From a virus, in the IMG/VR virus record IMGVR_UViG_3300020470_001313, positions 32,001 through 96,000 of that record: DNA of 64,000 nucleotides; one strand, written 5' to 3'. Positions 1 to 57,434 of this stretch are shown piece after piece; position 1 is the stretch's first letter, and every line of letters starts with the position of its first letter. The notes beneath the pieces were generated by a model. That model saw only the letters and a program-made list of their open reading frames with translations. It was not told where the DNA came from and made no database searches. The translations under genes and the position numbers were made by a program.

Positions 1-177
1 AGTGCCGTTACTGTAGGTGCATCACAAAACTTTAGTGATACATACAGTGTTGCTGGTGGAACTGTTGGCGATCTTGCTGGTTCTGTCACTAGTTCTCATG
101 GATTTAGTGGTGTAGAGGCTGGTGGAGCAAATACATCTGCGACTTCTCAGTTCGTAACTGAAGTCACAATCAGGTAA
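1..177 (+). CDS. C-terminal part of a Gly/Ser/Thr-rich hypothetical protein (5' truncated by window)
   Basis: Frame 1 is open from base 1 to TAA 175-177 (SAVTVGASQNFSDT...TSQFVTEVTIR*), 4 nt before the next ATG. Confidence 0.8.
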   Translation, partial: SAVTVGASQNFSDTYSVAGGTVGDLAGSVTSSHGFSGVEAGGANTSATSQFVTEVTIR

Positions 178-181
178 GACG

Positions 182-613
182 ATGAGACGAGTTATAGCAT
201 TACTATGGCTTAGTCTTTTGGGATCTGCTGCTAACGCAGTGCCAGTGGTCCCAAATTTTACCCAGGGCTCTATGACTAGTCATACAGAAACTACGTCTAA
301 GGTAACTGAGACGATTAATAGCATGGATTATGCTACAGGCTGGCAGTATTCAGTTACTGGTACAGGCATTCAACACGATGGTTCCTCAATTACACCAGGA
401 ACAACATCATCTACGAATACAATTGATGGGGTGACTTCAACATGGACAGGATTGGATTTAAACAACAAACCCAACTGGACACAAACAACACCAGGTGCAG
501 CATTTCAGATGACGGAAACGTATCTCGGACCTGGGCTTCAAAATCAGACAATAATTCAAAGAGTGACCGAGGTAACAAGCGTCACCGACACAACAAGTAT
601 CTTCTCGCAATAG
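182..613 (+). CDS. Secreted Thr-rich cyanophage hypothetical protein
   Basis: Sec signal peptide MRRVIALLWLSLLGSAANA; beta-rich mature region VPVVPNFTQGS...VTDTTSIFSQ. Confidence 0.85.
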   Translation: MRRVIALLWLSLLGSAANAVPVVPNFTQGSMTSHTETTSKVTETINSMDYATGWQYSVTGTGIQHDGSSITPGTTSSTNTIDGVTSTWTGLDLNNKPNWTQTTPGAAFQMTETYLGPGLQNQTIIQRVTEVTSVTDTTSIFSQ

Positions 614-37762: not shown

Positions 37763-38548
37763 TTAAATTGCCTCATCTTGACCGCTAGTAGGATTACGCT
37801 TCTTACCGTCACCAAAATCTTCCCATGTTTCACCGAATCCAAAATCATCATCTGCATCAGCAGTGATAGGATCTGGTTGTACAGTATAGCGAACTTCTCT
37901 TGGTGCAGTACCAACATTGGTACTTGTATAAGAATCGGTAATAACCTTCTTGATTGTAGAGGATTCTTGTACAGGACCGTAGATGTATGTCTTAGCAGTA
38001 AAACTTAAAGTGTAAATGATTGCGCGACGAGTGGCAAAATTACCCTCATACTCATCATCATAGTCAATATTATTAATAACGACAGGAACATCCTTTGTTT
38101 CATTGAGTCCTGGGACCAACTTGAGGGGTAAGTTATAACTTGGCTGGAAATAAGGTAAAATCTGTTCCAGAATTTCAAGGCCGTCATCTTGATTTTTAGA
38201 TATAATTGCTAACTCAAATCCTACACTATATGGAACTGGCATATATGCCACCTTACTCTTATCTGAAGTACTTGTTACTGTTATCTTCTGAGTAGGACTA
38301 ACCTTTCTTGTAGGATCATAATCAATACTAGTTATCTCAAATGAGATTCTAGGAAGAGTAATACCTACTCTTTTGTTTGTTGGATCAGGAGTCTGTTCCA
38401 AACGTGCTAAAAACTTTTGCTTAGGACCATAAGCTAGAGGCACTTTCATGACCTCACTGCCTTGTTTGATCTCTATATTATTAAACAGAGTACCAAATCC
38501 AACAACGGTCTTTCTAAAGACTTCGTGATAAAAATATTTTCCTAGCAT
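37763..38548 (-). CDS. gp15: Tail sheath stabilizer
   Basis: FGTLFNNI, KVPLAYGPKQKFL, LPRISFE, EQILPYFQP. Confidence 0.96.
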   Translation of the reverse strand: MLGKYFYHEVFRKTVVGFGTLFNNIEIKQGSEVMKVPLAYGPKQKFLARLEQTPDPTNKRVGITLPRISFEITSIDYDPTRKVSPTQKITVTSTSDKSKVAYMPVPYSVGFELAIISKNQDDGLEILEQILPYFQPSYNLPLKLVPGLNETKDVPVVINNIDYDDEYEGNFATRRAIIYTLSFTAKTYIYGPVQESSTIKKVITDSYTSTNVGTAPREVRYTVQPDPITADADDDFGFGETWEDFGDGKKRNPTSGQDEAI

Positions 38549-39708
38549 TAGATTGTTAAGTCAGTAGTAGAACCAATGGATCCAAATGGATTACCTTCGG
38601 AGAAATCAATAATGTCATCATCAGCTGTCTCAAATGTGTAGTTCTGGTCAACTTCACTATTAGTATTATCTATAGTATTATAAGATTCAGGACTCCAGAG
38701 AGCACCAGATGATTGACCTTTAATATTCTCTCCAGTATTAAATGTACCTGTACGATTTATAACTTGAAGTGTTCTAGTGCCAGCATCCCAAGATTTGACC
38801 TCTGCTTGTGTATCCTTCGGTGAATTACCAAAGGTTACAGTTGGTGCTGAAGTATATCCAGTACCAGCAGTATTTATAGTAACTCCAGTTACCAATCCTC
38901 CAGCAGATATTACAGCAGTTCCAGCAGCACCAGATCCACCTCCACCACTGAATGTTACAGTAGGAGCAGAAGTATAAAACTCACCACCATCAGTAATGGT
39001 AACACTGTCAACACCATCACCAGATATAGTAGCAGATCCAACGGCAGTATTAAGATCCCCAATGACAATCTCACCAACTGTAAAAGCACCAGACCCACCA
39101 GTACCCATGACAAACGCCGTGGAGTTACTAAAGGCGTATTCAATAGCATCAATGTCAGCAATACCAGTATCAAGATCTTCATTAGAGTACTCAAATATTT
39201 CGCATTGCATTTCCCAGACGTATCCTTTACCTAACTGGTAAAATGGTCTTTCTGCTTCTACGAATTTAATTTCAAATAAATGTTTTGTTGTCGGGAACCA
39301 AACTAAATCTCCTTCATTAGGTCTACCTTCAACATTTAATGTAACGTTATTATCAACCTTCTCAGTAAACTTTTCACGGGAAACAATAAAGGTTGTCTTG
39401 TCTTCTATTCTAACACCAAATTTAGTTAGGAGTTCTCCTTGTCCTTCCCAACCTTCAACGTTGTTAACATATGCTCTGATAGGATATGCATTATTAAATG
39501 TACTAGTATCTATCTCATCTAGAACATTATCTCTTCCAACATAGGTTCTAGGTAGATAATAAACATCTTGTCCATACAACTCAATAGACTCCACAACAAG
39601 ATTCTCCATGAACTTACGTTCTTGATCAGAACCATTAATGTTCAATCTACAGGCAGAACTGTAATCTGACTGTACACAATCTTTTGCTGGAGTGTTTGAG
39701 TATGCCAT
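38548..39708 (-). CDS. gp14: Neck protein with inserted beta domains
   Basis: ESIELYGQDVYYLPR, RPNEGDL, FYQLGK, DFSEGNPFG. Confidence 0.95.
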   Translation of the reverse strand: MAYSNTPAKDCVQSDYSSACRLNINGSDQERKFMENLVVESIELYGQDVYYLPRTYVGRDNVLDEIDTSTFNNAYPIRAYVNNVEGWEGQGELLTKFGVRIEDKTTFIVSREKFTEKVDNNVTLNVEGRPNEGDLVWFPTTKHLFEIKFVEAERPFYQLGKGYVWEMQCEIFEYSNEDLDTGIADIDAIEYAFSNSTAFVMGTGGSGAFTVGEIVIGDLNTAVGSATISGDGVDSVTITDGGEFYTSAPTVTFSGGGGSGAAGTAVISAGGLVTGVTINTAGTGYTSAPTVTFGNSPKDTQAEVKSWDAGTRTLQVINRTGTFNTGENIKGQSSGALWSPESYNTIDNTNSEVDQNYTFETADDDIIDFSEGNPFGSIGSTTDLTI

Positions 39709-40522: not shown

Positions 40523-43500
40523 TTAAGCGAATGAGGATATAGTCAAAGTAGTTACATCATTAGCAGCGACAGCTTCTCCAACCTTGAAGAATCCATCAAC
40601 ATTATCAACAGTAATTAAACTCGTACCCATAGCAGTGATAACTCCAGTAGTACCAGAGGTTGCTCCAGTTACTGTTGCACCAACTTCCATCGTTGTGATA
40701 TCAGCAAGTGCGAAGGTTGCATGAGTGAATACTGTAGCAGTATTAATCGTTGCGTTAGCAAAGATTGTAGCAATATCAATAGTTGAACTATTACCATGAA
40801 TAGCAGATACAGGTATCGTTGCACTGTTACCATGAATTGCAGAAACAGGAATGGTAGCACCATTACCATGAATAGCACCAACAGACAGGGTAGCAGTGCT
40901 ACCGTGGATAGCACCAACCGTAGTTGTTGCATTACCATGAATAGCAGCAACACCAGTAACTGCGTTACCATCTCCAGATCCATCAATTGTGATAGTGTCA
41001 GAAGCAGCATATCCAGTACCATCATTATTAATTACAGCACTTACTACGTGTCCAGATGAATTGGTAGTAATATCAAGAGTCAATCCAGTACCAGAGTTAT
41101 TAGTAGTTGTAGAAACACCAGTTATAGTTTGACTAGCAGGGTATCCAGTACCAGCTACCATTATTGAATTAAGAGTCTCAACACCAGTTGCATTAGCATT
41201 AGTTAATGTGATTGTATCTGATGCAGCATAACCAGAACCATCGTTAACGATAGTCATTCCAGTTACAGAACCAGATCCATTAACAGCAACAGTAACTGTT
41301 AATCCAGAACCAGATCCACCTGTTGTAGTTGCAACTGTGCCAGCAGAATAACCTGAAGCAGCAGCAGTAATAGAACCAAGTGTAGCAACACCAGATGCGT
41401 TAGCATTGGTGATTGTAATTGAATCACTATTAGCATAATTCAAACCATCATTATTAACTGTTACTCCAGTTACTCCACCAGATCCATTAACTGTAATGTC
41501 AACAGTTAAACCAGTACCAGATCCACCTGATGTGGTGGCAATTGCAGATCCCGCAGAATAACCACTACCAGCAGCAGTGATAGTTCCAAGTGTATTAACA
41601 CCAGATGCATTAGCGTTAGCAATCGTAATTACTTCAGAAGCAGCATATCCTGATCCATCATTGTTAATTGAAACACCATCAACAACACCGTTAGTAACAG
41701 TAACGTCAACAGTCAATCCAGTACCTGAACCAGATGATGTTGTTGCAAGAGCAGTACCTGTACCATATCCAGTACCGCCAGATGCAATTGAACCAAGTGT
41801 CTTAACACCAGATGCATTGGCATTGGTAATTGTAATTGTCTCAGCATTAGCATAACCAGATCCATCATCATTAATAGTTACTCCAGTTACGGCACCATTT
41901 CCATCAACTGTAATGTCAGCAGTTAATCCAGTACCAGATCCAGATGCAGTTGTTGCTATTCCAGATCCAGCAGCATAACCTGTTCCAGCAGTTGCAATAG
42001 AACCAAGAGTTCTAACACCTGTTGCATTTGCGTTAACAATAGTGATTGTGTCATCTACAGCATATCCTGTACCAGCAGCATTAATTGCTGCGTTAGTTAC
42101 AACACCATTAGATGTTGTAAGATTAAGTGTTAAACCTGATCCACTTCCTCCAGTAGTTGCAATAGCAGTTCCATTCGCATATCCTGTACCACCAACGAGA
42201 GTATCAACAGTGGAAGCACCACCAGCATTAGCATTAACAACTGTAATTGTTTCTCCGTTAGCGTATCCTGTACCTGGTGCGTTAACTGCAATGTTTGTAA
42301 TATTACCATTTCCATCAACAGTAGTGTCAAAGGTTAATCCAGATCCACTTCCACCTGTTGTAGCAACTCCTGTAGCAGAACTAAATCCACCAACACCACC
42401 TGATAATGTACCCAAGTTCAAGGTAGAAACACCACCAAGGTTAGGGTTAGTGATTTGTAGATTATCTCCAATTAAATATCCTGAACCAGCACCATTTACA
42501 GCAAGAGCAGTTATAGCACCAGCAGCATTGACTGTAGTATCAACTGTCAATCCAGTACCAGTACCACCAGATGTGGCAACAGCAGTTCCAGCACTGAATC
42601 CACCAAGACCACTAGCAGTGATTGATCCAAGACTTACAACAGTTCCTGGTGTAGGATCTCCAGATAGATTAAGTGTTAATGTTGTAGAAGTAGCAAGGTT
42701 GTTTAACATAGCACTAAGTTGTGCGTATGCATTATCAAGTTTTGCTTGAACTCTTGCTTCTGTATAGTAAAGGTTAGTTCCCTCAGCAAGATCAGCAGTA
42801 TCATGGTTGTTAAGGTTTGCTGCCTGAGTAGCAGTTGCAGGAGTAATATCTCCAGTACCATCAAAGGCAGTACCACCAATATTTCTTGCGGTTGCTAAAG
42901 CAGTTGCAGTTGCAGCATTTCCAGAGGTATCCTGATTACCCGCTGTATTAACGCCAGGAAGGTTTATAGCAGCAGTACCATCAAATGATACTCCACCAAT
43001 GTTTCTTGCCGTTTCAAGGGCAGTAGCAGTGTCTGCGTTACCTGTAACATCACCAGTCAAATTACCAGTCACATTACCTGTTATTGTACCACCTGCTTCA
43101 ATATCATCCGTCCAGATCTTACTCCATCTATGAGTAGTCGTTCCTAAAGTATAAGAACTATCTGTGTCAGGTTTAATATTCTTAGAATCTGTAGTTGCAG
43201 CAAGAAGGTTACCAGTTACATTACCAGTAACAGATCCAGTTAGTGATGCTGTAATAACACCAGCAGCAAAGTTACCCGATGCGTCACGAATGACTAGGTT
43301 GTTTGCAGAATTAGCAGAGTTAGATGTAATTGTAATACTTGGATCACCAGCAACACCACCACCATTTGTAATACCAATACCACCACCAGATACCTGAATG
43401 GTACGTTGAGCATAAGTGTTGGCAGCTGTACGGGCAACCAGACCTGTTCCACTCATTCCTGCCAAAGCAGTTATATCTGCATCATCATAGGTAGTAGTAA

Positions 43501-46500
43501 CCGTAAAGTCTGCACTACCATTAACTGAAACCGAACCATTTACTACACCATCAATGGTGAGAGTTCTAGCAGTTTTCCAAACATCAGCAGAAGTTGCGTT
43601 ACCTTGAATACCTGCACCAGCTCCAGCAGCACTTTCAACAGTGATGATATGAGCAGAGAAGTCTCCAGAAGAGTCACGAGCAACAACTGTAGAGTTTGTA
43701 GCAGCAGTTGCAGTTGTCATTCCATCTAACAAGTCTGCGTTAAGGTTAGTAATCTTAACTGTGTTAGGAATAACTAAAGCAGGACCAGAGGAAACTTGTG
43801 AAATTAATTGTCCGTCAACAGTAATAGTACCATCAACGTTTACGTTGTTATCTACATCAAGAGCAGTACCAGCACCAGTAATATTAACTGCACCAACCTG
43901 TAAAGTACCATCAGTTCCACTAAATGTCTCAGCACTATTGGTTGCGTCAGTTAAAAGTCTAAATGTATTGAGGTTGTTATCCCATCCAAGGAATCCAATT
44001 CTTGCAGCAGTATCGTAGTATCTAAACTCAATACCACGATCTAAACCATCATTAGAAGTAGGAGCAGTAGCACCACCAAGAGTCATTACGGGATCTTCTA
44101 CCGTAGTGACCGTACTTTCAACAGTAGTTGTAGATCCTAGTACGGTGAGGTTTCCACCCACTTGGAAATTATTTCTTACTTCAGCATTACCTGAAGATGT
44201 ATCTACAAAGAAACTATTCTGAGTTCCAACAGTATCATATACAATGAAATCTCCACCAGTGTAAAGGTTCTTATCTACTCTTGCACCACCAGCAGTTGTT
44301 AATGATACCTGAGCATCAGCAAAGGATGTAATATCCTTAGTATCTGTGATAGTAATCTTACCAGCAAATGCTGCATCATCAGTCTGAGTTAAAGTTCCTG
44401 TAGTTTCTAAGTTACCATAAACTCTTGCACTACCACCAATAGCAGTGTCTCTAGCAATACCAACACCACCAGTTACTTGTAATGAACCATCAGCAGCATA
44501 AGATCCTGTTAAGGTTTGCTGTGTGTTGTTAGTAATAGATGTAATACCAGTAACACCTAGAGTGTTGTTAATACCAGCAGCAAGAGATACGTCTAGTGTA
44601 CCTGAGATATTTGTATTACCATTATCAGTATCTACTGTAAACTTATCTACAGCACCAGCAGTCTGAATCTTGAACATCTTATTATCAGACTTGACAATAA
44701 GATCATCTTGAATAGTTGTAGCACCATCAACATTTAATGTGCTATCAAAATCAACTGCATCCTGACCATTCAGTGTACCTTTAATAATTGTATTACCAGT
44801 TGAAGATGCAACTGTAAATTTATCAGTAGTTCCAGATCTAACTGCAAAGTCATTATCTACATCTACAGTTCCATTGAACTCTGAATTATTTGTAACTTCT
44901 AATGTTCCACCAATAGTTGTATTACTATCAACGTTAAGAGTTGAATTTAACTCAGTGTGTCCATCAGCAGTTAGAGTACCCTCAATATTAGTATTACCAG
45001 TTACGTTGTCAACAAAGAACTTATCAGTTGTACCATTTCTAACTGCAAAGTCTGCATCTACGTCAACAGTACTATTAAATTCTGTGGCACCAGTTACAGT
45101 TACGTCACCATCTATTTGTACATCTCTACCAAGAGTAGTATCACCATGAACTGTGAATGTACCTACAGTTGCTGAACCAGTTGAAGATATACCAACAACT
45201 GTATTACCAGTAGGACCATCAACACTAAACTTAACTGTATCTCCAGAGTTTTTCTTACCTACAAATAAACCTTCTCCAGTACCAGTACCACCAATGTGTA
45301 ATGAAGTATTAATACCAGCACCACCATATACTCTTAAGTTAGAAGTGTTATGGTTTGAGTAACTTGGAGTGTATGCAGAAACAGAACCAGTACGTAATTT
45401 ATAACGTATTGATAGGTAGTTCCTTAAACCGTAGTTCTCAGTTGCGTCTTCTTGCTGGTTAAAGTCACCGTTAAGATATAAATCACCATTGAATAATACA
45501 TTCTTATCAAAGTATGCACCACCATCTACTCTTAATGCACCATAATCATTATTCTGAATTGAGTGAGGAGCACCAGATAGAATATCAGGATTATCTGTAG
45601 ACTCAAAATGAACAAGACCAGCTACATTTAACTGTGCAGCAGCATCAATATTACCAGTTTGATTTAATACACCACCAATGTCAACATTACCTGTAGTGGT
45701 ATGAAGTGTAGTCTTAGTAGTTCCTGAACCATTCTTAAGTTCTAAAGTCTTAGAAGCACCTTGGAATACAATATTATCATCAAATCTACTTGTACCATGA
45801 GTACGGAAGTTAGTATCTACATCTAACGTACCACCAATATTTACATCTTGTGTAATACCAACACCACCTGCAACTACCAAATCTCCAGTAGTATTAGATG
45901 TTGAGTTAGTATTTGTTGTTAGTTTTAAGTTACCAGCGATGACCCCTGCATCTGTTCCAGAGAATACCTCTGAGGTATTTGTGGCATCGTAGAGGAATGT
46001 GAATGCTCCTGTATGGCCTCCAAGATCAGCGGCCGAATCGTCGTAACCAAAGAATCCAATTTTTGCGCTTGCGTCGTAATATCTGAATTCAACTCCTCTA
46101 TCCTTATTGTCGTCTGACGCAGGAGCAGTATCCCCGCCAAGAGTAACGATAGGATCATCAACAGCAAGAGTGGTTGAATTAACCGTTGTAGTTGTTCCAT
46201 CTACTTGTAAATCTCCACTTACTACTACGGTTCCAGTGATCGCACGATCATCACCTGGATCCAAATACATTGTTGCATTACTAGTAGCAATATAATTGGT
46301 TTGTATTTTTACATCTTCTATATGAACTTTACCAGTTGCTTCAGTAGCATCAATAGTTACAGTATCTTCTGCTTGAATAACAACATTACTTGTTCCAGCA
46401 CCAGTATTAGCAGCAACAAGTGTTAGGTTTCTAGCATTAGCACTGTTCTGAGATATTCCAAGGGTGAAGTTTCCATCACCTGTCTTGCTTATTGTCTGAT

Positions 46501-47881
46501 TAGTTGCTCCATCAAATGTTACATCGGGGTCACTGAAGTAAGATCTGACGTTAATATCAATCTCTCCACTGCCACTGTCGCCAGTATTATTAGCACCGAA
46601 TAGAAGATTCCCTGAAGTATCGTTAATTTTAACATAGTTTAAATAATCAAATCCATGATGTGAACCAGCTACAGTTAATTCCTGATCTAGTTCAAAGTGT
46701 TGTTGCGTGTTGTTATCAGAGAAGGATATTCTATTGTTTTGAAGTTGAGTATTATCAACACCCAAAGCACTGATGCTGACATGACCGTTATCATCAACAT
46801 CAAAATCTTCCTGTGCAAAGGAAGCGAGACCTTTCTGTTCCGTCTTCGCCGCAGCAAGATATCTCCATCCTCCAGTATCAGAAGCATCCGTATGAGTAGG
46901 TGCGCCACCTCCAGACGCAATGCCTGTAATAGCCTGATAAACCTTCGTAGCGTTCTCAATAATATCGTAACGTACATATGTTGTACCTGCATTATAAGCA
47001 GCATACTTACTACCTTCTATTGCAGTAGCAATAGGAATAGTTTCTGCTGAAGTAAATCTACCCCACTGATCAACTGTGAATTGTGTTGTGTTTACAGTTA
47101 TATCAGAGTTAGTTGGAAGATCATCACCACCAACTGAAATAAGAGCTGGAGCATTATATGCACCAACATTAGCAATGAACTCTGCTTCTGATGCAATAGT
47201 TGTATCAATAAGGTCAATAGTTGGGTTACCAGCTACACCACTACCATTAACAATAGAAATCTTACCAGAAGAACCCTGAAGAGTTCTAGGAATCATATTA
47301 CCTGCTGATGCCCTAGTAATCAAACCTGTTGCAGTCATTCCTGCAATAGATGTTAAGTCAGTATCTAATGGTTGTACGTCTGTTAAACCGAGATCAACAT
47401 AAGAAGAAGGTGAAGCACCTGTAGTAATCCTACCTTTCGCGTCTACTGTTACCTTTGTATATTGCCCTGAAGAAGTTGTTGTACCATCATAATGTGGTAA
47501 TGTAGTTAAGATCTGTAATTGTGCCGATATTGATAAGTTAGAAGATCCATCAAATGTGCCCGAACCTGCTAAGTCACTTGATAACTGTATCTGACGTGGG
47601 TTTGCTAGTCTGGATGCTGTAGCAGCATTACCGATAACAGTTGCGGTGATAGATCCTGCACTAAAATTACCGTCTGCGTCCCTTGCGACAAGAGTGTTTG
47701 CTGTGTTAGCAACTGACTCTATCGGTCTAGCATATGGCAGCGTGTTCCAACCCCTAACACCATCACCAATTTTGAATCGGTTTGTATCAAGTTCAATTCC
47801 AAGTTCACCTTGGGCTAACGTTGGGTTTTCGTTTGCCCACTCTTGAGCACCCCCTCGTCTTAGTTGAATTCTATTAGCCAT
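40523..47881 (-). CDS. Giant fibre/adhesin-like virion protein (2452 aa)
   Basis: N-terminal RIQLRRG...NPTLAQGELGIELDT.RFKIGDG fibre motif; several G/T/A-rich repeat families. Confidence 0.9.
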   Translation of the reverse strand: MANRIQLRRGGAQEWANENPTLAQGELGIELDTNRFKIGDGVRGWNTLPYARPIESVANTANTLVARDADGNFSAGSITATVIGNAATASRLANPRQIQLSSDLAGSGTFDGSSNLSISAQLQILTTLPHYDGTTTSSGQYTKVTVDAKGRITTGASPSSYVDLGLTDVQPLDTDLTSIAGMTATGLITRASAGNMIPRTLQGSSGKISIVNGSGVAGNPTIDLIDTTIASEAEFIANVGAYNAPALISVGGDDLPTNSDITVNTTQFTVDQWGRFTSAETIPIATAIEGSKYAAYNAGTTYVRYDIIENATKVYQAITGIASGGGAPTHTDASDTGGWRYLAAAKTEQKGLASFAQEDFDVDDNGHVSISALGVDNTQLQNNRISFSDNNTQQHFELDQELTVAGSHHGFDYLNYVKINDTSGNLLFGANNTGDSGSGEIDINVRSYFSDPDVTFDGATNQTISKTGDGNFTLGISQNSANARNLTLVAANTGAGTSNVVIQAEDTVTIDATEATGKVHIEDVKIQTNYIATSNATMYLDPGDDRAITGTVVVSGDLQVDGTTTTVNSTTLAVDDPIVTLGGDTAPASDDNKDRGVEFRYYDASAKIGFFGYDDSAADLGGHTGAFTFLYDATNTSEVFSGTDAGVIAGNLKLTTNTNSTSNTTGDLVVAGGVGITQDVNIGGTLDVDTNFRTHGTSRFDDNIVFQGASKTLELKNGSGTTKTTLHTTTGNVDIGGVLNQTGNIDAAAQLNVAGLVHFESTDNPDILSGAPHSIQNNDYGALRVDGGAYFDKNVLFNGDLYLNGDFNQQEDATENYGLRNYLSIRYKLRTGSVSAYTPSYSNHNTSNLRVYGGAGINTSLHIGGTGTGEGLFVGKKNSGDTVKFSVDGPTGNTVVGISSTGSATVGTFTVHGDTTLGRDVQIDGDVTVTGATEFNSTVDVDADFAVRNGTTDKFFVDNVTGNTNIEGTLTADGHTELNSTLNVDSNTTIGGTLEVTNNSEFNGTVDVDNDFAVRSGTTDKFTVASSTGNTIIKGTLNGQDAVDFDSTLNVDGATTIQDDLIVKSDNKMFKIQTAGAVDKFTVDTDNGNTNISGTLDVSLAAGINNTLGVTGITSITNNTQQTLTGSYAADGSLQVTGGVGIARDTAIGGSARVYGNLETTGTLTQTDDAAFAGKITITDTKDITSFADAQVSLTTAGGARVDKNLYTGGDFIVYDTVGTQNSFFVDTSSGNAEVRNNFQVGGNLTVLGSTTTVESTVTTVEDPVMTLGGATAPTSNDGLDRGIEFRYYDTAARIGFLGWDNNLNTFRLLTDATNSAETFSGTDGTLQVGAVNITGAGTALDVDNNVNVDGTITVDGQLISQVSSGPALVIPNTVKITNLNADLLDGMTTATAATNSTVVARDSSGDFSAHIITVESAAGAGAGIQGNATSADVWKTARTLTIDGVVNGSVSVNGSADFTVTTTYDDADITALAGMSGTGLVARTAANTYAQRTIQVSGGGIGITNGGGVAGDPSITITSNSANSANNLVIRDASGNFAAGVITASLTGSVTGNVTGNLLAATTDSKNIKPDTDSSYTLGTTTHRWSKIWTDDIEAGGTITGNVTGNLTGDVTGNADTATALETARNIGGVSFDGTAAINLPGVNTAGNQDTSGNAATATALATARNIGGTAFDGTGDITPATATQAANLNNHDTADLAEGTNLYYTEARVQAKLDNAYAQLSAMLNNLATSTTLTLNLSGDPTPGTVVSLGSITASGLGGFSAGTAVATSGGTGTGLTVDTTVNAAGAITALAVNGAGSGYLIGDNLQITNPNLGGVSTLNLGTLSGGVGGFSSATGVATTGGSGSGLTFDTTVDGNGNITNIAVNAPGTGYANGETITVVNANAGGASTVDTLVGGTGYANGTAIATTGGSGSGLTLNLTTSNGVVTNAAINAAGTGYAVDDTITIVNANATGVRTLGSIATAGTGYAAGSGIATTASGSGTGLTADITVDGNGAVTGVTINDDGSGYANAETITITNANASGVKTLGSIASGGTGYGTGTALATTSSGSGTGLTVDVTVTNGVVDGVSINNDGSGYAASEVITIANANASGVNTLGTITAAGSGYSAGSAIATTSGGSGTGLTVDITVNGSGGVTGVTVNNDGLNYANSDSITITNANASGVATLGSITAAASGYSAGTVATTTGGSGSGLTVTVAVNGSGSVTGMTIVNDGSGYAASDTITLTNANATGVETLNSIMVAGTGYPASQTITGVSTTTNNSGTGLTLDITTNSSGHVVSAVINNDGTGYAASDTITIDGSGDGNAVTGVAAIHGNATTTVGAIHGSTATLSVGAIHGNGATIPVSAIHGNSATIPVSAIHGNSSTIDIATIFANATINTATVFTHATFALADITTMEVGATVTGATSGTTGVITAMGTSLITVDNVDGFFKVGEAVAANDVTTLTISSFA
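40690..42650 (-). repeat. 8 long (~70 aa) plus 8 short (11-12 aa) intragenic repeats
   Basis: Long: G.GLT.D.TV...V..N.G.GY....ITI.NANA.G; short: ATIPVSAIHGN-type. Confidence 0.9.
45925..46200 (-). CDS. Candidate nested +1-frame gene: TM plus coiled coil
   Basis: 91 aa; GGAG 12 nt upstream; host-frame GC3 elevated over the same interval. Confidence 0.45.
   Translation of the reverse strand: MEQLQRLIQPLLLLMILSLLLAGILLLRQTTIRIEELNSDITTQAQKLDSLVTTIRPLILEAIQEHSHSSTMPQIPQRYSLEQMQGSSLVT
46519..46635 (-). CDS. Candidate nested +1-frame 38-aa TM peptide
   Basis: MLKLTILQGIFYSVLIILATVAVERLILTSDLTSVTPM (manual translation). Confidence 0.3.
   Translation of the reverse strand: MLKLTILQGIFYSVLIILATVAVERLILTSDLTSVTPM
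46687..47004 (-). CDS. Candidate nested +1-frame membrane protein
   Basis: RRRRNRK...RK cluster directly before a TM segment; ACG/GCG codons enriched in the host frame. Confidence 0.45.
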   Translation of the reverse strand: MLLIMQVQHMYVTILLRTLRRFIRLLQALRLEVAHLLIRMLLILEDGDILLRRRRNRKVSLPLHRKILMLMITVMSASVLWVLIILNFKTIEYPSLITTRNNTLN

Positions 47882-55901: not shown

Positions 55902-57434
55902 TTAGAATTCAATAACAACTTTAATGTCTTCAATCTGGTCGTTAGCACGAGAAATCGTACGTCTATTATCTATGTAGATAAGGTTACCAGAGTTAGACTC
56001 TATCTCAGGTTTTGCATAACCAGAGGTAAATCTCATACCTAGGTCATATTCGGTATTGTTAATAACACGAGAAGAAGTGTTAGGAACAGCAGGGAAGTTC
56101 ACATCTGGGTCGCCAGAAGCACCAGAAGAAGAACCTTGAATGGCATTAGAACCATCAAACTCGTTCAGAGAACCAGTAACAGCAGGGAAAATACCATCAA
56201 CTCTATTTTGATAATACTTAAGAACCTTAGTTGTTGAGTTCCATGAAATAACCTTACCAGTTGCAGTAACAGACTGACCACCTACAATACGAGTTTGAGT
56301 AATTGTTTCGTCAGGAATAAAGTTACCTTGGAAGGTTGTTGGGAAGATAACTGCTCTTGCAGCAGATAATGTTAGGTCAGAAAGAAGTTCGGTAGTACCA
56401 TACTTCTTAGGATTAGTGCAAAGACCAATACGACGATAATCGTTATCAATCGGGAAGTCTCCAGCACCTTCATCATATGATAGCTTTGCGTTTACCATAA
56501 CACGGTAAGCACCCACTTCCACTACAGGGTCTTTACCATGACCACCAGGAGGTGGAATGATAACATCAATTTGTCCACCTGTTCCAGTACCAATACCAGA
56601 AACAGCGTTAACAGTTACTTTACCAAAGGAATATCCAGTACCACCAGATGTCACAGTAGCAGAAATAACACGTCCACCATCAACTACGATAGAAACACGA
56701 CCACCAGTTCCGTCTCCAGCAATTGCTACGTTATCGTATGTACCATTGTTATAACCTGAACCAGATGAAGTAATGACAACAGTGTCAATTTCACCAGCAA
56801 CAGCATTAGAACTTACTGAAGCATCACTGAATACAGGCATGTAATCAGCAGAGAAGAACTTCAGAACCTGTGCGACAGGAATAGTATACATATACTTCCA
56901 ACGATACCCGTCAGAAGTAGTGATGATGGATGTAGAAGTACCAGTAGGTTCAATGGTAGAAGGCTTACCATTAGGGTCAGCAGGACTAGTACCGTTATAG
57001 ATGCACTTATAAACTTGGTAATTGGAGTTAACGACATAGAAGTCAGAGTCATACAACTTGGTAGCACCAGATGATGCTGTGTTAGTTGGTGAATAGTCAT
57101 GACGATACATGTCATAAGTATAACCCAAACCACCAGTAGTTTGCTCTGGGGGAATCCAGTCAATACGACGTACAACTTGAATCGTGTCGGCAGCAAGAAC
57201 ACGCTTCAATGACATCATATCATCGTAAGCATCAGAGAACTCATCAAATGAGTCAACCGCCTGGGGTGGGGAATTTTCGTTGTCCCATTCTTGGGGACGA
57301 CCAATAAAGATGTAAAGACGATCCCTATCGTCACCAGCAACTGTGTCACTTGCCAGAGGATCTGGTCCTTCCAGTGACTTAATAAATTTTTGTGCTGTAA
57401 ATATTCTGAATTGATCAGTAAGTAGTGCTGCCAT
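55902..57434 (-). CDS. gp8: Baseplate wedge subunit
   Basis: VYKCIYNG, DGYRWKYMYTI, YIDNR..ISRA.DQIEDIKVVIEF. Confidence 0.94.
   Translation of the reverse strand: MAALLTDQFRIFTAQKFIKSLEGPDPLASDTVAGDDRDRLYIFIGRPQEWDNENSPPQAVDSFDEFSDAYDDMMSLKRVLAADTIQVVRRIDWIPPEQTTGGLGYTYDMYRHDYSPTNTASSGATKLYDSDFYVVNSNYQVYKCIYNGTSPADPNGKPSTIEPTGTSTSIITTSDGYRWKYMYTIPVAQVLKFFSADYMPVFSDASVSSNAVAGEIDTVVITSSGSGYNNGTYDNVAIAGDGTGGRVSIVVDGGRVISATVTSGGTGYSFGKVTVNAVSGIGTGTGGQIDVIIPPPGGHGKDPVVEVGAYRVMVNAKLSYDEGAGDFPIDNDYRRIGLCTNPKKYGTTELLSDLTLSAARAVIFPTTFQGNFIPDETITQTRIVGGQSVTATGKVISWNSTTKVLKYYQNRVDGIFPAVTGSLNEFDGSNAIQGSSSGASGDPDVNFPAVPNTSSRVINNTEYDLGMRFTSGYAKPEIESNSGNLIYIDNRRTISRANDQIEDIKVVIEF

What the first reader, a model, noticed from the sequence alone, without database searches (positions are those of the whole stretch)
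40690..42650. 'Russian doll' nested repeats: 8 incomplete domains out, 8 completing strands back
Seen: eight ~70-aa repeats, a turn (GSGDGN), then exactly eight 11-12-aa strands, then a terminal VGATVTGATSG...FKVGE domain. The five innermost long repeats carry D-G before the second G-x-x-Y (NDDG, NNDG, NNDG, VNDG, NNDG), and the first five return strands end in IHG. The three outer repeats (NGAG, NAPG, NAAG) match three strands lacking IHG. Inference: each domain is inserted into a loop of the previous one, so the chain makes a hairpin rod. Asp/His pairs would set register or bind metal, and length changes need paired duplications.
Basis: partly seen in the sequence, partly recalled or inferred. 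Interest (0 to 1): 0.72.

Follow-up and report, generated by a model that had tools for sequence, protein, structure and literature searches.

The report
Self-nested barrel hairpin in cyanophage fibre
The last 700 residues of a giant marine cyanophage fibre protein most likely build a rod of eight small beta-barrels nested inside one another, each closed by one strand that the chain supplies on its way back. The fibre's far tip would therefore be a hairpin turn rather than the protein's end.

Summary
Gene 40523-47881 (-) encodes a 2452-aa fibre of a T4-like cyanomyovirus. It ends in eight ~70-aa repeats, a GSGDGN turn, eight 10-12-aa strands and a conserved 55-aa domain.

- **Repeat counts.** In 121 distinct homologous tails, long and short counts are equal (3 to 8) in 120. 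The one exception looks like a chimera.
- **Asp/His register.** The Asp state of a long repeat matches the His state of a short strand in 96% of pairs in antiparallel register. A one-step shift gives about 75% and parallel order 13%.
- **Structure.** AlphaFold2 of the three innermost levels gives pLDDT 93 and pTM 0.78. Structural alignments place single barrels on residues 1..240, 66..229 and 133..219, which is repeat n plus return strand 9-n.

Each level resembles T4 sheath gp18 domain I only weakly (Z 5.5). No Pfam family, PDB sequence or Foldseek PDB match was found.

Still untested are whether Asp and His touch, whether they bind metal, and whether the three chains pack together. AlphaFold2 of the whole 718-aa region failed.

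Nested domains (gp18, cyanobacterial RNA polymerase Si3) and hairpin fibres (T4 gp37) are known, so this is a new variant. The scan noted similar nesting in another cyanophage genome (e1-5326105).

The parts
40523..47881 (-). Whole gene: 2452-aa giant fibre or structural protein of a T4-like cyanomyovirus
   Evidence: ORF and translation. phrog_697 'structural protein' E=0. Mtd_N at residues 5-42, E 9e-13. Nearest isolates are P-RSM1, P-RSM4 and P-SSM4 'fiber / YadA domain-containing structural protein'. The gene lies between baseplate-wedge or giant structural genes and gp13/gp14/gp15/gp16 homologues.
42632..42769 (-). Conserved base, N side: helix-like segment YYTEARVQAKLDNAYAQLSAMLNNLA plus the LNLSGDPTPG cap (residues 1705-1750)
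   Evidence: LSGDPTPG is invariant in alignment A1. Mean pairwise identity is 0.81, the highest of all parts.
42008..42631 (-). Outer long repeats R1-R3 (residues 1751-1958), with Ala or Pro before the second G-x-G-Y
   Evidence: HMM hits i-E 1e-25 to 1e-27. Column-47 states are A, P, A.
40982..42007 (-). Inner long repeats R4-R8 (residues 1959-2300), Asp type (D2006, D2075, D2145, D2214, D2287)
   Evidence: HMM hits. Column 47 is D in all five. In the AlphaFold2 model R6-R8 each form about five strands.
40964..40981 (-). Hairpin turn GSGDGN (residues 2301-2306), the inferred distal tip of the fibre
   Evidence: Sequence. The innermost level is the least conserved part, with mean identity 0.48 and 5th percentile 0.21. 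It occurs as two distinct sequence types.
40790..40963 (-). Return strands S1-S5 (residues 2307-2364), His type (H2315, H2326, H2338, H2350, H2362); partners of R8, R7, R6, R5, R4
   Evidence: Segmentation. S1-S3 are beta strands in the AlphaFold2 model. VIA ranges end at these strands. D/H register statistics.
40691..40789 (-). Return strands S6-S8 (residues 2365-2397), Phe/Phe/Thr type; partners of R3, R2, R1
   Evidence: Segmentation. A-F and A/G-T pairing is seen across homologues.
40526..40690 (-). Conserved 55-aa terminal domain (residues 2398-2452), inferred to sit back at the base beside the N-side cap
   Evidence: Many invariant columns. Mean pairwise identity 0.80. No Pfam match. Its position at the base is inferred from the hairpin topology and was not modelled.

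Best explanation
The C-terminal 700 residues form a self-nested ('Russian-doll') hairpin rod.

**Path of the chain.** After a conserved helix and LSGDPTPG cap, the chain lays down about five of the six strands of a small beta-barrel. It then moves on to the next barrel, and so on for eight levels. It turns at GSGDGN and runs back, giving one 10-12-residue strand to each unfinished barrel in reverse order (R8+S1, R7+S2 ... R1+S8). It ends in a conserved 55-aa domain back at the base.

**Consequences (inferred).**
- The distal tip of the fibre is the innermost barrel and turn, not the C-terminus.
- Only the innermost barrel is contiguous in sequence, so folding probably starts there and zips outward.
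- Fibre reach can change only in whole levels, which needs matched changes at two distant places in the gene.

**The position-specific pair.** At the base-facing ends of strand 3 and the return strand sits a pair of residues that depends on the level. It is Asp+His in inner levels, and Ala+Phe or Gly+Ala/Thr in outer levels. It most likely acts as a register-specific lock, by contact inside or between barrels. Metal binding is possible but not shown.

**Shown:** repeat anatomy, count equality, register-specific covariation, a confident nested AlphaFold2 model for three levels, and the conservation gradient.

**Inferred:** nesting of the outer five levels, placement of the terminal domain, folding order, tip function, oligomeric packing, and the role of Asp/His.
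For: - **Anatomy:**
- **Counts in proteins:** n_long = n_short in 73 of 74 distinct proteins from the protein search (P0019's apparent 6/5 is a segmentation miss, 6/6 by eye).
- **Counts in loci:** all 79 IMG/VR loci with a readable tail are equal.
- **Counts pooled:** 120 of 121 distinct tails, n = 3 to 8.
- **Level-specific indels:** the 3-level P0071 differs from the 4-level P0053 by one Asp-type long repeat and one His-type strand at mirrored positions.
- **Independent changes:** n changes at least 22 times on a tree of the flanks.
- **Asp/His contingency in antiparallel order:** D-H 144, D-F 12, A-H 4, D-T/A 0.
- **Register agreement:** 96.2% at register 0, 73-76% at plus or minus 1, 13% in parallel order.
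- **A null case:** proteins with no Asp-type repeat have no His strand (P0086, P0105).
- **Coupling analysis:** the top long-short coupling in mean-field DCA is D47-H9.
- **AlphaFold2 of R6-R8+S1-S3:** register-clean alignment of 55 sequences; pLDDT 93.1, pTM 0.78, five models 87.7-93.1, S1-S3 as strands.
- **VIA alignments:** single barrels map to model ranges 1..240, 66..229 and 133..219 with 66-76 aligned residues.
- **BFVD:** the model of a P-SSM3 homologue matches with TM 0.74.
- **Conservation gradient:** N cap 0.81, terminal domain 0.80, outermost return strand 0.80, innermost long repeat 0.48.
Against: - AlphaFold2 of the full 718-aa region did not give the nested fold: pLDDT 62, pTM 0.26, short strands without secondary structure. 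The alignment mixed different repeat numbers, which may explain it, but that remains a negative result.
- The tool returns no coordinates. Strand-to-barrel assignment therefore rests on the first and last aligned residues of structural alignments, and Asp-His proximity could not be measured.
- Only monomers could be modelled, whereas fibres of this kind are normally trimers.
- One sequence (P0050) has 4 long and 3 short repeats.
- Asp/His matching fails in three lineages: D with F in the P0028 group, and A with H in P0051/52 and P0068/87.
- The similarity matrices of long and short repeats in the window do not mirror each other significantly (Mantel r 0.32, p 0.13).
- DCA was underpowered (Meff 72) and did not clearly separate registers.
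Confidence: 0.82

Rival explanations
1. gp37-like trimeric needle. The same out-and-back topology holds, but the three return strands run together along the threefold axis as the core of a trimer. In this reading the five Asp/His levels are octahedral metal sites (3 His + 3 Asp). The Phe levels are hydrophobic plugs, as in the iron-studded needle of T4 gp37.
For: - The upstream part of the protein has typical trimeric-fibre elements: Mtd_N, T4-type fibre repeats and a helix just before the array.
- T4 gp37 has seven His-coordinated irons along its needle and Phe in the trimer core (PMC6957217).
- His is followed by an invariant Gly and is replaced by Phe in outer levels.
- A conserved Ile sits on the other face of the return strand.
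- The monomer model of the whole region failed.
Against: - A single chain already gives closed barrels at pLDDT 93 and pTM 0.78 with no partner chains.
- His lies in phase with the strand's core-facing hydrophobic residues, which suggests it is buried within its own barrel.
- There is no HxH motif.
- No sequence relation to gp37 was found in the PDB search.
Confidence: 0.2
2. Independent modules. The long repeats are a plain tandem string of domains, and the short repeats form a separate beta-solenoid or sheet such as a short triple beta-helix. The equal counts would then be coincidental or have some non-structural cause.
For: The full-length AlphaFold2 model left the short repeats undocked. 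Short periodic strands do form independent triple beta-helices in other fibres, for example T4 gp5 (PMC3004832).
Against: - Equal counts in 120 of 121 tails across n = 3-8 and about 22 changes.
- Register-specific Asp/His covariation.
- The nested three-level model and its domain ranges.
- The conservation gradient is symmetric about the turn.
Confidence: 0.04
3. Modelling artefact. AlphaFold2 docks the strands because of repeat-sequence similarity, while the true fold pairs strands between chains (a domain-swapped trimer) rather than within one chain.
For: Co-evolution signals cannot tell intra-chain from inter-chain contacts in homo-oligomers, and only monomers were modelled.
Against: A swap between chains would keep the same level-by-level pairing, and hence the same count rule and register, so it changes the detail and not the architecture. 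All five models agree.
Confidence: 0.1

Closest known systems
T4 tail sheath gp18 (domains I-IV nested; PDB 3FO8/3FOA)
   Same: - Domain I is inserted in domain II, II in III and III in IV, a Russian-doll chain topology (PMC3004832).
[quoted passage not shown]
- It is the best structural match to one level of the fibre: Z 5.5, rmsd 3.0 A, 74 residues, 19% identity. The KP1 sheath (9ev2) gives Z 5.6 and 26% identity.
   Different: - gp18 nests four different folds once each. Here one fold is nested in itself eight deep, and each return segment is a single strand.
- Sequence relation is not established. Pfam Gp18_dom_I scores 15.5 bits against a cut-off of 27, and 0 of 48 innermost levels hit it.
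Si3 insertion of cyanobacterial RNA polymerase beta' (SBHM array)
   Same: It is an elongated array of repeated small beta domains that is not a simple tandem. SBHM-2 to -5 contain elements from distant parts of the chain as the polypeptide folds back over itself (PMC10895346).
   Different: - The fold is different (SBHM), and only four of the eight domains are split.
- It is a cellular enzyme, not a virion fibre.
- No count rule between long and short repeats, and no polar/hydrophobic register pair, is described there.
T4 long tail fibre tip gp37 needle
   Same: - In gp37 the chain runs out to the tip and back, so the receptor-binding tip is a turn and the C-terminus returns towards the collar (my knowledge of Bartual et al. 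2010, not re-read here).
- Periodic His residues line the rod; gp37 has seven irons (PMC6957217).
   Different: - Both limbs of gp37 are extended strands woven into a trimeric six-stranded needle (same source, not re-read here), with HxH motifs.
- Here the outward limb builds a barrel at every level, His is single and paired with Asp, and a monomer model is self-consistent.
- No sequence similarity was found.
Split domains of RTX adhesins (AhLap, MpIBP)
   Same: A beta domain of a fibrillar surface protein is interrupted by an inserted domain that it projects outward (PMC12077191).
   Different: There it is one level of nesting, with a different domain inserted, in bacterial adhesins.

Membership tests
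T4-like cyanophage giant fibre / structural protein (phrog_697) | Full-length match to the family profile | tested here: met
   phrog_697 E=0, 2887 bits, six stretches. Homologues are annotated fiber or structural protein in P-RSM1, P-RSM3, P-SSM4 and others.
T4-like cyanophage giant fibre / structural protein (phrog_697) | Mtd_N-type N-terminal domain and position in the tail/neck gene block | tested here: met
   PF18454 at residues 5-42, 48 bits against a cut-off of 26. Neighbours are baseplate wedge subunits upstream and gp13/14/15/16 homologues downstream.
Nested (domain-in-domain) architecture as in gp18 or Si3 | A domain is built from two segments distant in sequence, with the inner domains encoded between them | tested here: met
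   VIA alignments of single barrels span model residues 1..240, 66..229 and 133..219 with about 70 aligned residues each. The model has pLDDT 93 and pTM 0.78. Counts and register support it.
Gp18 domain I family (PF22639) | Sequence match above Pfam's gathering score | tested here: not met
   15.5 bits against a cut-off of 27 for the three-level segment. None of 48 innermost levels match at E<=1.
Gp18 domain I family (PF22639) | Six-stranded beta-barrel fold | tested here: inconclusive
   Best Z is 5.5-5.6 (3fo8_D, 9ev2_S1), barely above unrelated EF-Tu-type barrels at Z 4-5. The tool's own guidance is that Z under 8 may reflect only a common arrangement.
T4 gp37-type needle | Out-and-back chain with the tip at the turn | tested here: met
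   Antiparallel pairing of long repeats and return strands. The conservation minimum is at the turn.
T4 gp37-type needle | HxH motifs giving His6 iron sites on the threefold axis | tested here: not met
   The return strands carry a single His (AIHGN) and no HxH. Metal binding itself is not testable with these tools.
T4 gp37-type needle | Trimeric interwoven six-stranded needle | not testable with these tools
   Only monomer prediction is available. The monomer model shows barrels rather than bare strands.
Independent beta-solenoid / triple beta-helix | Short repeats fold on their own, with a number independent of neighbouring domains | tested here: not met
   Counts are tied 1:1 to the long repeats in 120 of 121 tails. 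Strands are assigned to barrels in the model.

The most novel reading that the evidence does not exclude
The Asp/His levels are real metal sites, so the fibre carries a ladder of metal ions. There would be five in this phage and 0-5 in relatives, with the number set by how many inner levels are Asp/His rather than Ala/Phe. The ions could sit inside each barrel or on a trimer axis. This would be a new metal-site type for phage fibres (single His + Asp, not HxH), in abundant marine cyanophages, with a site number that evolves level by level.
Probability: 0.25. Interest if true: 0.8.

Novelty: new variant of a known kind. Interest (0 to 1): 0.62.

Why it matters
- **Where the tip is.** The working tip of an abundant class of marine cyanophage fibres would sit at a hairpin turn about 150 residues before the C-terminus. 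That changes where to look for host-recognition determinants. It fits the data: the innermost level is the most variable part and the C-terminal domain is among the most conserved.
- **A natural folding system.** One domain is nested in itself up to eight deep and closed by single strands. This allows study of folding order (inside-out zipping), strand-register specificity, and the Asp/His versus Ala/Phe code.
- **An evolutionary puzzle.** Each length change needs two matched indels roughly 0.1 to 1.5 kb apart in the gene, yet it has happened many times.
- **A possible wider pattern.** More distant proteins with the same barrel unit seem to show trailing strand arrays too, so this may be a general building principle of cyanophage virion proteins.

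Tried and rejected
- **AlphaFold2 of the whole 718-aa region** with a mixed-repeat-number alignment: poor (pLDDT 62, pTM 0.26), with the short strands unstructured. Foldseek of that model found nothing.
- **Foldseek of the good three-level model against the PDB:** no match at E<=0.001.
- **PDB sequence search with the three-level profile:** nothing below E 0.1.
- **Pfam on the whole protein, the three-level segment, the terminal domain and 48 innermost levels:** only Mtd_N is significant. The sub-threshold Gp18_dom_I hit was not reproduced, so I do not claim homology to gp18.
- **Test for paired duplications within the window** (does the long-repeat similarity matrix mirror the short-repeat one?): not significant (Mantel r 0.32, p 0.13).
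- **Mean-field DCA on 401 pooled level pairs:** underpowered (Meff 72). The D-H pair ranks first, but shifted registers give couplings of similar size.
- **Literature searches** for a solved structure of a T4-like marine cyanophage fibre found none in the held library. This is an absence in that library only.
- **Independent solenoid and parallel pairing:** both considered and rejected.

Full report
**What is there**

The finding lies in one gene, window 40523-47881 on the minus strand, which encodes a 2452-aa protein.
- It matches PHROG 697 ('structural protein') over its whole length.
- It starts with an Mtd_N domain.
- Its nearest isolate relatives are the 'fiber / YadA domain-containing structural protein' genes of T4-like cyanomyoviruses such as P-RSM1, P-RSM4 and P-SSM4.
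- It sits between baseplate-wedge or giant structural genes and homologues of T4 gp13, gp14, gp15 and gp16. That is roughly where T4 has gp12 and wac.

**Check of the observation**

Internal alignment and a repeat HMM give eight long repeats at residues 1751-2300, each with i-E 1e-25 to 1e-31. Then come a GSGDGN turn, eight short units of 10-12 residues (2307-2397) and a 55-aa terminal domain.

The residue before the second G-x-G-Y reads A, P, A, D, D, D, D, D in R1 to R8.

**Do the counts covary?**

I counted long repeats with the HMM. I counted short strands by stepping back from the terminal domain.
- Among 74 distinct tails from the protein search, all are equal except P0050. P0019's apparent 6/5 was a miss of my pattern and is 6/6 by eye.
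- All 79 IMG/VR loci with a readable tail are equal.
- Pooled, 120 of 121 distinct tails have equal counts, with n = 3, 4, 5, 6, 7 or 8.
- On a quick ML tree built only from the flanks, n changes at least 22 times. Tree error or recombination may inflate this figure, and six states need at least five changes in any case.

The exception P0050 has the long repeats of a 4-level relative (P0053) and the exact tail of a 3-level one (P0071). They are joined within an innermost repeat that both share. An assembly chimera or a recent recombinant is the simplest reading.

**Register**

I paired long repeat i with short strand n+1-i.
- Asp goes with His in 144 cases, with Phe in 12, and never with Thr or Ala. 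Ala goes mostly with Phe or Thr, and Gly with Ala or Thr.
- Asp/His agreement is 96.2% in this register, 73-76% when shifted by one level, and 13% in parallel order.
- Proteins without any Asp-type repeat have no His strand.
- Three lineages break the rule at one level.
- Asp/His levels also differ from the others at neighbouring positions. They have D/N at column 46, Ser at 23, Ser/Asn at 54 and Gly after His, which makes a polar cluster.

**Structure**

AlphaFold2 of the whole 718-aa region was poor. The alignment mixed repeat numbers.

In a nested array the innermost levels are contiguous in sequence. I therefore cut R6-R8 plus S1-S3 from the window, and the equivalent stretch from 54 loci, all in register from the turn. 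That model has pLDDT 93.1 and pTM 0.78. All five models score 87.7 or more, and S1-S3 come out as strands.

The tool returns no coordinates, so I read the topology from structural alignments.
- T4 gp18 domain I and a Klebsiella phage sheath domain align to model range 1..240 with 72-75 residues.
- EF-Tu-type barrels align to 66..229.
- Other barrels align to 133..216/219.

A compact domain of about 90 residues can only superpose on residues that are close in space. So R6+S3, R7+S2 and R8+S1 each form one barrel, and this is the nested model.

Foldseek finds no PDB analogue of the whole arrangement. BFVD returns predicted structures of homologous cyanophage fibres with the same shape.

**Supporting gradient**

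The N-side cap (mean identity 0.81), the outermost return strand (0.80) and the terminal domain (0.80) are the most conserved parts. The innermost long repeat is the least conserved (0.48, 5th percentile 0.21). It also comes in two unrelated-looking versions with different turns.

This fits a conserved base and a variable distal tip at the turn. It is the opposite of what a plain linear fibre with a C-terminal receptor-binding domain would show.

**How it most likely works**

The chain builds five strands of each barrel on the way out and closes each barrel with one strand on the way back.
- Only the innermost barrel is contiguous, so folding should begin there and proceed outward (inference).
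- The Asp/His or Ala/Phe pair lies at the same end of strand 3 and of the return strand. It is probably a contact that marks register.
- Metal binding is possible, and by analogy with gp37 it could lie on a trimer axis. Nothing here tests that.
- Each level should add about one barrel diameter to the fibre. Relatives range from three to eight levels.

**Comparison with known systems**

- Nested domains are known in T4 gp18, cyanobacterial RNA polymerase Si3 and RTX adhesin split domains.
- An out-and-back fibre tip with periodic His is known in T4 gp37.
- This case differs in three ways. One small barrel is nested in itself up to eight deep. Each barrel is closed by a single strand. And a strict count rule and a residue code tie the two arrays together.
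- Sequence membership in Gp18_dom_I was tested and not met. Fold similarity is weak (Z 5.5).
- I found no paper describing this architecture in the held library.
- The scan has noted comparable self-nesting in another cyanophage genome (e1-5326105) and in this genome's gp7 (e1-5790649). I did not test those notes.

**Verdict**

The role of Asp/His and the oligomeric packing remain open. This is a new variant of a known kind and of good interest to phage structural biology and protein-fold evolution.

Noticed in passing
protein P0050 (homologue): This is the only tail with unequal counts (4 long, 3 short). Its long repeats match the 4-level P0053, and its tail is identical to the 3-level P0071. 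The join lies within a shared innermost repeat, so it is either an assembly chimera or a natural recombinant that should misfold.
   Followed up: partly
window 38548-39708 (-), residues ~220-300; window 55902-57434 (-), residues ~200-300: The same G-x-G-Y barrel unit occurs in the gp14-like neck protein (HMM i-E 9e-6) and weakly in a baseplate wedge protein. There it appears as ~35-40-aa tandem half-units (GxxVTGVTINxxGTGYTSAPTVTF). The fibre's barrel therefore belongs to a unit reused across this phage's virion proteins.
   Followed up: partly
alignment A3; loci L010-L029, L040, L052, L074, L078 and others: The innermost level comes in two sequence types of about 30% identity. One has the usual G-T-G-Y start and a short G-S-G-D-G-N-type turn. 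The other lacks the first G-x-G-Y (…PGTYTIGTSDY…) and has a longer ADAQLGGGGGAxLTFD turn. They look like exchangeable tip modules.
   Followed up: partly
proteins P0130, P0196, P0167: More distant proteins with 3-5 copies of the barrel unit are followed by runs of short beta-like segments of about the same number, with different sequences (for example AVIKIEEVSET AKIEVSEVGRP AVLWTNVG…). The nesting rule may therefore extend well beyond this fibre family, which has 1825 representative clusters at E<=1e-3.
   Followed up: no
window ~42770-43400 (-), residues ~1490-1700: Upstream of the array are T4-type fibre repeats (…ATALETARNIGGVSFDGTAAI… twice) and runs of GNVTGNLTG. These are typical trimeric fibre shaft elements. 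A helix-like segment lies directly before the nested array.
   Followed up: no
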